Below are positions 29,664-32,607 of a DNA stretch of 57,992 nucleotides, piece by piece. The position numbers and the translations under genes were made by a program. Each line of letters starts with the position of its first letter. Within the stretch, counting starts at the first letter, position 1. Location of the stretch: IMG/VR virus record IMGVR_UViG_3300033141_003442; one strand, 5' to 3'. A model generated the notes under the pieces. That model was not told where the DNA came from. It saw nothing but the letters and a program-made list of their open reading frames with translations, and made no database searches. Source of the DNA: a virus.

Positions 29664-29816
29664 TTAGTCTTTGATTTTAAAATATTGCTTCAATGCCTGC
29701 CTTATTATATAGCTCCGATTGACATCTTTTTTCTCGCATTCTTTATCAATCCTTACCAAATAATCAAGAGGTAAAGAAACAGTTACCGTGGTATTTCTTC
29801 CTCGTTGCATTTTCAT
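29664..29816 (-). CDS. Ribbon-helix-helix (CopG/Arc-like) DNA-binding protein (50 aa, missed by ORF track)
   Basis: Manual translation gives MKMQRGRNTTVTVSLPLDYLVRIDKECEKKDVNRSYIIRQALKQYFKIKD; ATGA overlap with the upstream stop. Confidence 0.5.
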   Translation of the reverse strand: MKMQRGRNTTVTVSLPLDYLVRIDKECEKKDVNRSYIIRQALKQYFKIKD

Positions 29817-31354: not shown

Positions 31355-31537
31355 CTATGTTTCATCCTTTTCAAGCTCGTCAATAATTCTTTTAATATCA
31401 AGTAATGTATCTGCACAAATATTTACTACTCCATTACCTTGGTATGTAGCTGTATAAGTTGCACTACTTGCTGTTAATTCTCTATTGTCTTCTAGATAGA
31501 TATGATAGCCTTTATAAACTTCTATAAAGGTTTTCAT
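31355..31537 (-). CDS. Hypothetical protein (60 aa)
   Basis: ORF track. Confidence 0.35.
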   Translation of the reverse strand: MKTFIEVYKGYHIYLEDNRELTASSATYTATYQGNGVVNICADTLLDIKRIIDELEKDET

Positions 31538-31878
31538 TTAAAAGCTCCTTTATATTTGCTTTCAATTAGTAATATTTCCTCATAAGTTTCTATTGCAACC
31601 TTAAAATAATCTTCTATCTTTTGAATGTTCTCATATCTCGTTTTAAAATTACTTATTATTCTTGTAAGGTCTTCAGAGCTAAATGGTGTTGACTTTGGAC
31701 TATGTTTAAGTTCTATTTTAATAAGACCAAGAGAAGTTGGAATTATTTGTGTTTTAATTCTCATCTCCCATATTTTATCTTGCATTTCTTCAACAAATAT
31801 ATCTACATTGGCTTTTATCCATTGTTCTTTTGCATTATAATTACCTACACTATCAATCAAGTCCTTTGTTATTTTCAT
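31534..31878 (-). CDS. Hypothetical protein (114 aa)
   Basis: ORF with SD GGAGGAG; preceded by a roughly 150-nt structured leader. Confidence 0.5.
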   Translation of the reverse strand: MKITKDLIDSVGNYNAKEQWIKANVDIFVEEMQDKIWEMRIKTQIIPTSLGLIKIELKHSPKSTPFSSEDLTRIISNFKTRYENIQKIEDYFKVAIETYEEILLIESKYKGAFK

Positions 31879-32044
31879 TTATTAAACTCCTCCATATTTT
31901 GTTTCTGAGCGAGGTTTAATGGCTTAGACAATGTTTTTATATGTCTTTTGGGTTGAAACTAGCTCAGCGGTTAAATATGTGCGTCTGAGAGCGGATGAGA
32001 TGTTGTTTAGATACCCGATTTTAAATTGGCTTTTCATTATCTTA

Positions 32045-32073
32045 ATGATAAAACAAGTAATTTATTTTGTCAA
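32045..32073 (-). promoter_or_regulatory. Sigma70-like promoter TTGACA-N17-TATCAT (minus strand)
   Basis: Plus-strand tgtcaa 32068-32073 and atgata 32045-32050, 17-nt spacer; part of a 35-bp element also present at 39935-39965. Confidence 0.45.
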
Positions 32074-32607
32074 GGGTCTAATTTTTTTAAGTATAATTTT
32101 TTTCCCTTCCTGTGTTGTCCTGATGCCTGTGATAAAGTAATTAACCTTTCTTAACTGTTTCCACCATTTCGTTGCTATTTCACTGTCTGCCATGGTTATT
32201 GAATGAACCTTATTGCTGTCATAGGCACTTATCACTCGCAATAGTGCATTATATTCCATATCATTAGGGTTAGGTAGTTTGCAATTTTTTACTTTAAATC
32301 TATTATAAGGGTTTGGCTGAGGTTCTTCTGGATGTTTGTGGTGATATTTAATTCTAATTTTATTTATGACTTGTTGTGAGGATAATATACCTTTTTTTAA
32401 CTTATCATATAAAAACAAACAGAAAGCTGCAAAACAATTTTTCTTGGCTCTAAGCTTGCAAAGGTTTTCCACTGCCTCAATGAATTGCAGGTCTGTATAA
32501 TCATCACTAATAGTAATCAACCTTATCATTTCTTTCTCATGAACCACTACATCATTTTTTTTGGCAATATCCTTAAAAATTTCAAGCCTGCTGTCTGAGT
32601 TAGTCAT
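32062..32607 (-). CDS. Hypothetical protein (181 aa)
   Basis: ORF with SD GGAGG. Confidence 0.5.
   Translation of the reverse strand: MTNSDSRLEIFKDIAKKNDVVVHEKEMIRLITISDDYTDLQFIEAVENLCKLRAKKNCFAAFCLFLYDKLKKGILSSQQVINKIRIKYHHKHPEEPQPNPYNRFKVKNCKLPNPNDMEYNALLRVISAYDSNKVHSITMADSEIATKWWKQLRKVNYFITGIRTTQEGKKIILKKIRPLTK

What the first reader, a model, noticed from the sequence alone, without database searches (positions are those of the whole stretch)
31879..32061. Structured leader with three CTGAG(A)GCGG-like repeats downstream of a consensus-like promoter
Promoter 32045-32073 (minus) precedes a roughly 150-nt untranslated leader before gene 31534..31878. The leader contains a locally GC-rich island with repeated motifs (ctgagcgagg, agctcagcgg, tctgagagcgg; plus coordinates) that could pair into alternative stems, suggesting a cis-regulatory RNA or a small RNA.
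Basis: seen in the sequence. Interest (0 to 1): 0.4.

Follow-up and report, generated by a model that had tools for sequence, protein, structure and literature searches.

The report
Promoter fused to recycled phage spacer
The interval is an ordinary phage early promoter that a deletion has joined to a about 155-base spacer shared by related uncultivated phages; the spacer carries the ribosome-binding region of the next gene, and nothing shows that it is a regulatory RNA switch or a small RNA.

Summary
The window is an uncultivated low-GC tailed phage. The promoter (TTGACA-17-TATCAT, 32073-32045, minus strand) is real-looking and almost invariant in six relatives.

The "leader" is a discrete, about 155-nt module found in 17 distinct copies in related phage contigs. 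Only in the window does it sit directly behind this promoter. Elsewhere it lies mid-operon, after a ThiF-like gene or another gene, and before any of three different genes.

- **Make-up.** Its first 38 nt are a relic of the ThiF-like gene's 3' end. Only its last about 65 nt (31949-31883: hairpin, A-rich tract, GGAGGAG) are constrained.
- **Small ORF.** Gene callers read the module as a 51-59 aa ORF. In the window that ORF is frameshifted by one extra A. It shows no coding signature: variable sites by codon position are 20/26/23, against 45/26/118 in the neighbouring gene.
- **Repeats.** The three CTSAG motifs exist. The middle one is inverted, and they form the arms of an imperfect 27-nt inverted repeat.
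- **Structure.** The rod-like fold has no compensatory changes. It does not consistently hide the ribosome-binding site, matches no Rfam family, and has no terminator.

Verdict: a promoter plus a mosaic-junction 5' UTR and translation-initiation region. Low interest.

The parts
32045..32073 (-). Sigma-70-type early promoter: -35 TTGACA (32073-32068), 17-nt spacer, -10 TATCAT (32050-32045). It overlaps the stop codon (32064-32062) of the 181-aa gene. The predicted transcription start is near 32038.
   Evidence: It matches 11 of 12 positions and is the best site in the scan. It is nearly invariant, together with about 35 nt upstream, in relatives L001-L006, although the rest of the 181-aa gene has pS of 0.6.
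32000..32037 (-). Relic of the 3' end (last 12 codons, read in another frame) of a ThiF-like gene that the window lacks. This is the fast-evolving 5' end of the module. The ATG at 32037 would be at the very 5' end of the transcript.
   Evidence: In L008, L012, L017/L031, L032 and L033 the homologous 38 nt encode the C-terminus ...NERTIKSWVCNE* of a PF00899 protein. In L030 the same 40 nt are duplicated on both sides of an inserted gene. In all 17 copies, 25 of the 38 columns vary.
31950..31999 (-). Weakly constrained middle part. It holds motif 1 (CTCAG, 31989-31985) and motif 2 (CTGAG, 31967-31963), and the 5' arms of the predicted helices P1-P3.
   Evidence: In 17 copies, 28 of 50 columns vary, about as much as third codon positions of flanking genes. 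L030 has lost motif 1 (CTTAC).
31883..31949 (-). Constrained 3' block. It holds a hairpin (31946-31926), AAGCCATTAAACCTC, motif 3 (GCTCAG, 31910-31905), the A-rich tract AAACAAAATAT, and the Shine-Dalgarno GGAGGAG (31893-31887), which lies 8 nt before the ATG at 31878.
   Evidence: Only 17 of 66 columns vary, against 53 of 88 in the rest of the module (p = 2e-5). Without the Shine-Dalgarno it is 12 of 55 against 28 of 50 (p = 5e-4). The block is also more conserved than third positions of the adjacent gene B (p = 0.004). In all 17 copies it directly abuts the start codon of whichever gene follows.
31924..32037 (-). A 37-codon ORF. It is a frameshifted copy of the 51-59 aa ORF called in relatives. 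One extra A in the A5 run (31938-31934) shifts the frame. Without it the ORF would read ...KTYKTLSKPLNLAQKQNMEEFNK* and end in ATGA with the 114-aa gene.
   Evidence: L032 has the intact version with the same C-terminus.
31893..31979 (.). Imperfect inverted repeat with 27-nt arms (31893-31919 and 31953-31979). It forms helices P2 (CAUAUUU/AAAUAUG) and P3 (CUGAG/CUCAG) of the rod-like fold.
   Evidence: I1.
31534..31878 (-). The 114-aa gene of unknown function, served by the leader. The 60-aa gene (31355-31537) follows it.

Best explanation
The interval is the 5' untranslated leader of the operon that starts with the 114-aa gene. It arose when a deletion or recombination placed a conserved sigma-70-type early promoter directly in front of a lineage-specific, about 155-nt intercistronic module.

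The module has three parts:
1. A 38-nt relic of the 3' end of a ThiF-like gene.
2. About 50 nt that drift at nearly the neutral rate. This part carries two of the three CTSAG motifs.
3. A constrained block of about 65 nt: a small hairpin, an A-rich tract and GGAGGAG. It supplies the translation-initiation region for whichever gene follows.

The module also sits at a junction where gene modules are exchanged. The TIR-like microhomology GGAG(T/C)TTTTAAATG recurs before the next genes, which explains the precise loss of those genes in some relatives. The CTSAG motifs are arms of an imperfect inverted repeat that can fold into a rod, but nothing shows that this fold is a switch.

Shown: the promoter and its conservation, the module's distribution and contexts, the lack of a coding signature, and the conservation gradient.

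Inferred: the transcription start, the TIR/enhancer role of the 3' block, and the recombination history.
For: Promoter:
- It matches 11 of 12 positions and is almost invariant in six relatives.

Distribution and contexts:
- There are 17 distinct copies.
- Upstream contexts are the promoter (window only), a ThiF-like gene, or other genes.
- Downstream contexts are the 114-aa gene, a 36-aa membrane ORF or a 51-aa gene, in reassorted combinations.
- The first 38 nt equal the ThiF-like C-terminal codons and are duplicated around an insertion in L030.

No coding signature:
- Variable sites by codon position are 20/26/23. The third-position share is 0.33, against about 0.62 in flanking genes (p = 1e-6).
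- pN/pS is 0.63, 0.73 and 0.59 in the three frames, against 0.12, 0.19 and 0.11 for the three control genes.
- Stop-creating variants: 2 observed, 3.4 expected.
- The ORF is broken in the window, L003 and L008, while the downstream genes stay intact.

Conservation and absence of other signals:
- The 3' block is significantly more conserved than the rest of the module.
- No promoter or terminator lies inside the module in its native context.
- More distant ThiF-like genes (67% and 49% identity) have no such spacer.

Literature: the idea of short conserved boundary sequences, and an analogous about 50-bp duplication at an insertion, are described in PMC3029335.
Against: - The ORF is open, with an ATG, in 14 of 17 copies. 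By my estimate an open frame of 51 codons has a chance of only about 0.02-0.05 in this composition.
- Its start overlaps the upstream stop (ATGA) in several contexts, and its stop abuts the next start. Both are typical of real genes.
- The core folds better than shuffles in five copies (z = -1.9 to -4.8), so a structural role is not excluded.
- All copies are 80-93% identical, so conservation tests have little power and covariation tests have almost none.
- No transcript data exist, and the host is unknown.
Confidence: 0.5

Rival explanations
1. The interval is not a leader but a small protein gene (51-55 aa, basic, no known family). In the window it is inactivated or truncated by a +1 frameshift in an A5 run, which could equally be a homopolymer sequencing error.
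For: - Eleven protein clusters of this ORF were called in public assemblies.
- The ORF is open with an ATG in 14 of 17 copies.
- It has ATGA overlap with the upstream gene and stop/start abutment with the next gene.
- Removing one A restores a C-terminus identical to that of L032.
- Several changes in the C-terminal third are synonymous.
Against: - There is no codon periodicity (20/26/23), and pN/pS is about 0.6 in all three frames, whereas all three flanking control genes show clear signatures.
- There is no excess avoidance of stops.
- No copy has a Shine-Dalgarno before its ATG.
- In seven contexts the ORF would overlap the ThiF-like gene by 38 nt in another frame.
- It has no distant homologues and no Pfam domain.
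- It is lost in L003, while the element and the downstream gene persist.
Confidence: 0.25
2. The interval is a genuine structured cis-acting RNA: a rod of helices P1-P4. It would either be cut by RNase III or be opened by ribosomes finishing the upstream gene or the small ORF. Either way it would couple or tune translation of the downstream gene.
For: - The same nested fold is predicted by RNAalifold for 10 and for 17 copies.
- The core MFE has z = -2.5, -1.9, -4.4, -4.8 and -2.9.
- P1 pairs GCUCU with the GGAGU of the ribosome-binding site.
- The ThiF-like stop lies 8 nt before P1.
- A U·G to C-G change occurs at the top of the hairpin.
- An open ORF with an unconstrained peptide would fit a 'translate-through' device.
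Against: - No compensatory pairs are seen. Six or seven changes break pairs, against three that keep them, and the covariation term is positive.
- Shine-Dalgarno accessibility is no lower than with shuffled upstream sequence.
- The whole leader is not unusually stable.
- The core boundaries were chosen from the predicted fold, which biases the z-scores.
- The reverse strand folds almost as well.
- P1 is only 5 bp, with two G·U pairs.
- L030 has lost motif 1.
- The part holding the 5' arms drifts at nearly the neutral rate.
Confidence: 0.17
3. The interval is a DNA-level site: CTSAG repeats as binding sites for a phage regulator or replication protein, or a single-strand initiation hairpin.
For: - Three CTSAG cores lie within 85 nt in a genome where the pentamer is under-represented (49 found, against 73 ± 9 expected).
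- The inverted repeat is symmetric on both strands.
- The replication-initiator gene lies 2 kb upstream.
Against: - The motifs do not recur anywhere else in the window.
- Motif 1 is lost in L030.
- The motif-rich part is the less conserved part.
- There are no iteron-like regular spacings and no adjacent AT-rich unwinding region.
Confidence: 0.05
4. The interval encodes an independent small RNA, on either strand.
For: A strong promoter lies upstream on the minus strand.
Against: - There is no terminator between the promoter and the 114-aa gene.
- In 16 of 17 copies there is no promoter in front of the module.
- No plus-strand promoter lies inside it.
- No Rfam family matches.
Confidence: 0.03

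Closest known systems
Short conserved boundary (linker) sequences at module junctions of mosaic phage genomes (concept summarised in PMC3029335)
   Same: - A conserved patch lies between genes and is flanked by different genes on both sides in different relatives.
- A 40-nt duplication of an upstream gene's 3' end flanks an inserted gene in L030. This is like the about 50-bp case reported for mycobacteriophages Island3 and Brujita.
- Microhomology at the translation-initiation regions explains the precise gene deletions.
   Different: At about 155 nt it is longer than the usual linkers. Its 3' third is under measurable constraint. It can also be read as an ORF.
Phage intercistronic RNase III processing hairpins (for example the T7 early-region sites; from general knowledge, not tested here)
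   Same: An irregular hairpin with internal loops lies in an intergenic spacer of an early polycistronic transcript, just upstream of the next gene's ribosome-binding site.
   Different: No cleavage data exist, there is no covariation, and the helices are short (5-8 bp) and separated by large loops. The host and its RNases are unknown.
Leader-peptide or translational-coupling devices in which an upstream ORF is translated to open a downstream ribosome-binding site (general knowledge)
   Same: The ORF spans the whole structure and ends at the next start codon, and its peptide sequence appears unconstrained.
   Different: There is no terminator/antiterminator pair and no regulatory codon run. 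The ribosome-binding site is not consistently occluded, and stops are not significantly avoided.

Membership tests
Sigma-70-type bacterial/phage early promoter | -35 and -10 hexamers close to consensus with a 16-18 nt spacer | tested here: met
   TTGACA-17-TATCAT, 11 of 12 positions.
Sigma-70-type bacterial/phage early promoter | Conservation beyond what the overlapping coding sequence needs | tested here: met
   The hexamers and spacer are almost invariant in 7 genomes, while the gene's pS is 0.6.
Sigma-70-type bacterial/phage early promoter | A mapped transcription start | not testable with these tools
   No transcript data are available.
Any Rfam family (riboswitch, leader, sRNA, tRNA-like) | A covariance-model score at or above the gathering threshold | tested here: not met
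   No hits at gathering. The best sub-threshold hit scores 20.7 bits against a threshold of 49. The native copy also has no hit. ARAGORN finds nothing.
Transcription attenuator / riboswitch expression platform | An intrinsic terminator (GC-rich hairpin plus U-tract) competing with an antiterminator | tested here: not met
   No sense-strand terminator in the leader or in the native copy.
Structured cis-regulatory RNA (generic) | Helices supported by compensatory substitutions | tested here: inconclusive
   None of 27 pairs has changes on both sides. 96% of cells are paired, but the columns are mostly invariant. The score equals that of shuffles. Diversity is too low to decide.
Structured cis-regulatory RNA (generic) | Folding energy below that of shuffled sequence | tested here: inconclusive
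   Whole leader z = -0.9. Core z = -1.9 to -4.8, but with boundaries chosen after the fold was seen. The reverse strand gives -1.1 to -3.7.
Translational repression by occlusion of the ribosome-binding site | The Shine-Dalgarno is less accessible than expected | tested here: not met
   P(unpaired) is 0.14-0.71 across copies, within the range of shuffled-upstream controls.
Protein-coding small gene | An intact ORF in this window | tested here: not met
   A +1 frameshift gives 37 codons instead of 53.
Protein-coding small gene | An excess of third-position changes and pN/pS below 1 specifically in the ORF frame | tested here: not met
   Variable sites 20/26/23; pN/pS 0.63, 0.73 and 0.59 in the three frames. 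The controls behave as coding genes.
Protein-coding small gene | The ORF is kept open across relatives more than chance allows | tested here: inconclusive
   Open in 14 of 17 copies, but stop-creating variants number 2 against 3.4 expected (p = 0.34).
Phage module-boundary sequence | The same sequence flanked by non-homologous genes in different genomes | tested here: met
   Four kinds of upstream context and three kinds of downstream context occur, in reassorted combinations.
RNase III processing site | Cleavage of an irregular duplex of about 20 bp | not testable with these tools
   Only a predicted rod of 5 + 7 + 7 + 8 bp interrupted by loops.

The most novel reading that the evidence does not exclude
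The about 155-nt module is a portable structured leader. It would be a rod-like RNA that travels between phage gene modules together with its ribosome-binding site. It would control the downstream gene either through RNase III processing or through unwinding by ribosomes that translate a 'spacer ORF' whose peptide sequence does not matter.
Probability: 0.12. Interest if true: 0.45.

Novelty: new member of a known kind. Interest (0 to 1): 0.2.

Why it matters
Mostly this is a caution. A GC-rich, foldable gap behind a strong promoter in a phage genome looks like a riboswitch-type leader. Comparison with relatives shows that it is a mosaic junction built from a gene relic plus a shared translation-initiation region. 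Gene callers also mis-annotate the same stretch as a small protein.

It gives a clean example of how short repeated TIR sequences and gene-end duplications let modules be swapped or deleted precisely in an uncultivated phage lineage. If the rod turned out to be functional, it would be a small lineage-specific regulatory RNA, of modest general interest.

Tried and rejected
- **tRNA or tRNA-like fragment / attP core.** 'TAGCTCAGCGGTT' on the plus strand resembles a D-arm, but ARAGORN found nothing, Rfam found nothing, and the rest does not fit a cloverleaf.
- **Hammerhead-type core.** CUGAG is not CUGANGA. Rejected by inspection.
- **Repeated operator or phage-specific promoter motif.** No recurrence of the hairpin, of CGCTCAGA, or of any 11-mer of the leader elsewhere in the window beyond chance.
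- **Internal promoter or terminator in the native context.** None found.
- **Known phage relatives.** No DNA match in INPHARED. The portal protein is at most 24% identical to any cultured phage, so no host could be assigned.
- **Prophage copies in GTDB genomes.** Only chance hits.
- **More divergent copies for covariation.**
  - Pattern scans of IMG/VR and JGI metagenomes returned only copies at least 80% identical, plus chance hits.
  - More distant ThiF-like genes lack the spacer.
- **Strand inference from G·U versus C·A changes.** Five changes favour the plus strand and two or three the minus strand. Not significant.
- **Lack of a Shine-Dalgarno as an argument against the small ORF.** This is weak, because only about 65% of crude ORF calls in the window have one.

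Full report
**Setting.** The window is a low-GC (about 32%) tailed-phage genome. Portal, terminase, RecT-like, exonuclease and replication-initiator genes are recognisable. A block of early genes lies on the minus strand from about 45 kb down to 21.7 kb. No cultured phage is close: there is no DNA match, and the portal protein is at most 24% identical to any. The finding lies in the 183-nt gap between a 181-aa gene (32062-32607) and a 114-aa gene (31534-31878). Both are of unknown function.

**The observation.**
- The promoter is as described: TTGACA-17-TATCAT at 32073-32045, 11 of 12 positions, the best site within 3 kb. It overlaps the stop codon of the 181-aa gene.
- GC rises to 0.41 at 31900-31999.
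- The motifs are present. TCTGAGCGAGG and TCTGAGAGCGG are a 9/11 direct repeat 80 nt apart.
- The middle motif carries the core in the opposite orientation. The motifs are therefore really the arms of an imperfect 27-nt inverted repeat (31893-31919 and 31953-31979).
- As repeats they do not exceed chance, and they occur nowhere else in the window.

**Direct tests of an RNA element.**
- Rfam gives nothing at gathering thresholds for the whole window. At E up to 10 it gives only noise, both for the interval and for a native copy.
- ARAGORN finds no tRNA.
- The whole leader folds no better than shuffles (z = -0.93 sense, -1.10 antisense).
- There is no sense-strand terminator between the promoter and the 114-aa gene.

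**Relatives.** Six IMG/VR contigs encode the 181-aa protein at 84-89% identity.
- In all of them the promoter, and about 35 nt before it, are almost invariant. The rest of the gene has a synonymous divergence of 0.6. The promoter is therefore under selection.
- What follows the promoter differs. In L001, L002, L003, L004 and L006 a ribosome-binding site and a gene start 20-25 nt after the -10. Only L005 has the window's sequence there, and only after a remnant of another gene.
- Pattern scans and a protein look-up then recovered the same about 155-nt sequence in 17 distinct versions, 80-93% identical.
- It is a discrete module. Upstream of it lie the promoter (window only), a ThiF-like gene (PF00899), or other genes.
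- Downstream lie the 114-aa gene, a 36-aa membrane ORF followed by the 114-aa gene, or a 51-aa gene that corresponds to the window's 60-aa gene. The combinations are reassorted.
- In every copy GGAGGAG sits 5-9 nt before the next start codon.
- The three downstream arrangements are nested deletions. All three genes are preceded by GGAG(T/C)TTTTAAATG-like sequences, a microhomology that explains the precise junctions (and sequence inspection).

**Origin of the 5' end.** In the ThiF contexts, the first 38 nt of the module are the last 12 codons of the ThiF-like gene, read in another frame. In L030 these 40 nt occur twice, on either side of an inserted 148-aa gene. This is the kind of gene-end duplication reported at phage mosaic junctions (PMC3029335). 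The window has no ThiF-like gene, so 32037-32000 is a relic. More distant ThiF-like genes (67% and 49% identity) are followed directly by the next gene, with no spacer. The module is therefore confined to a narrow lineage.

**Is it a gene?** Gene callers annotate a 51-59 aa ORF over the module. In the window one extra A in an A5 run (31938-31934) truncates it to 37 codons. Removing that A restores a C-terminus identical to that of L032.

Evidence against a protein under selection:
- Variable sites by codon position are 20/26/23. In the neighbouring genes they are 45/26/118, 9/7/22 and 8/2/21 (p = 1e-6 against their third-position share).
- pN/pS is 0.63, 0.73 and 0.59 in the three frames, against 0.12, 0.19 and 0.11 for the controls.
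- Stop-creating variants are no rarer than expected (2 against 3.4).
- No copy has a Shine-Dalgarno before the ATG.
- The ORF is broken in three of 17 copies, while the element and the downstream genes persist.

Evidence for a gene:
- The frame is open in 14 of 17 copies.
- The ATGA and stop/start junctions are gene-like.

I rate a functional protein at about 0.25.

**Where the constraint lies.** The first 88 columns vary at 53 sites. The last 66 columns (31949-31883) vary at only 17 (p = 2e-5), and the difference holds without the Shine-Dalgarno (p = 5e-4). The 3' block is also more conserved than third codon positions of the adjacent 51-aa gene (p = 0.004), though not significantly more than those of the ThiF-like gene (p = 0.15). 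The part that carries motifs 1 and 2 drifts at about the synonymous rate, and L030 has lost motif 1.

**Structure.**
- RNAalifold proposes the same nested rod for 10 and for 17 copies: P1 GCUCU/GGAGU, P2 CAUAUUU/AAAUAUG, P3 CUGAG/CUCAG and a terminal hairpin.
- Cut to that core, five copies fold with z = -1.9 to -4.8. The boundaries were chosen from the fold, however, and the reverse strand gives -1.1 to -3.7.
- On 17 copies, none of 27 pairs has compensatory changes. Six or seven substitutions break pairs, against three that keep them. The covariation score equals that of shuffles.
- The ribosome-binding site is no less accessible than with shuffled upstream sequence.
- The fold is therefore possible but unsupported, and the data are too uniform to exclude it.

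**Conclusion.** The best reading (0.5) is a conserved early promoter joined by deletion to a mosaic-junction module. That module now serves as the 5' UTR and translation-initiation region of the 114-aa operon. Its only demonstrably constrained part is the 65 nt before the start codon.

Rivals:

| Reading | Confidence |
|---|---|
| Decayed or frameshifted small gene | 0.25 |
| Real structured RNA (processing site or coupling device) | 0.17 |
| DNA binding site | 0.05 |
| Free small RNA | 0.03 |

This is an ordinary kind of feature in a new phage lineage, and interest is low.

Noticed in passing
L031 4481-5038; L032 2481-3038; L033 53-610; L030 377-934: Close relatives carry a 185-aa ThiF/E1-like gene (PF00899) at the end of a four-gene module just upstream of the element. 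The window lacks this module. A ThiF-like enzyme in a phage early region is unexplained.
   Followed up: partly
L031 1625-2737: A 370-aa TnpB/Cas12f-like gene (PF07282) sits inside the early region of a related phage contig.
   Followed up: no
L030 1994-2058 (minus strand) and 896-935: L030 has a second, inverted, 81%-identical partial copy of the element's 3' block near the contig end. It also has a 40-nt duplication of the ThiF-like 3' end flanking an inserted 148-aa membrane-protein gene.
   Followed up: partly
L038 2774-2839; L041 4936-5008; also L039, L040, L042: An unrelated, higher-GC phage group shares CGCTCAGAAACGAAATATGGAGGA immediately before a gene start, downstream of a DnaD-like gene end. 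nhmmer gives E = 9e-5 over model positions 82-153. Whether this is a shared translation-initiation motif, horizontal transfer or chance is unresolved.
   Followed up: partly
window, whole; cluster at 31905-31989: CTCAG/CTGAG is under-represented in the window (49 sites, against 73 ± 9 in shuffles). This may be restriction-site avoidance. Even so, three sites lie within 85 nt in the leader.
   Followed up: no
window 32035-32050: The ATG of the frameshifted small ORF lies 8 nt after the -10 hexamer. If the ORF is translated in this phage, it would be from a leaderless mRNA.
   Followed up: no
window 29664-29816 (minus strand): A 50-aa ORF whose sequence looks like a ribbon-helix-helix (CopG-type) protein, in the same early block. 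PF01402 is recorded for the corresponding gene in L031. It is a candidate regulator.
   Followed up: no
window 32074-32110: The last about 12 codons of the 181-aa gene (AAAAAAATTATACTTAAAAAAATTAGACC) are A/T-rich and nearly invariant in relatives. This may be a UP-element-like extension of the promoter embedded in coding sequence.
   Followed up: no
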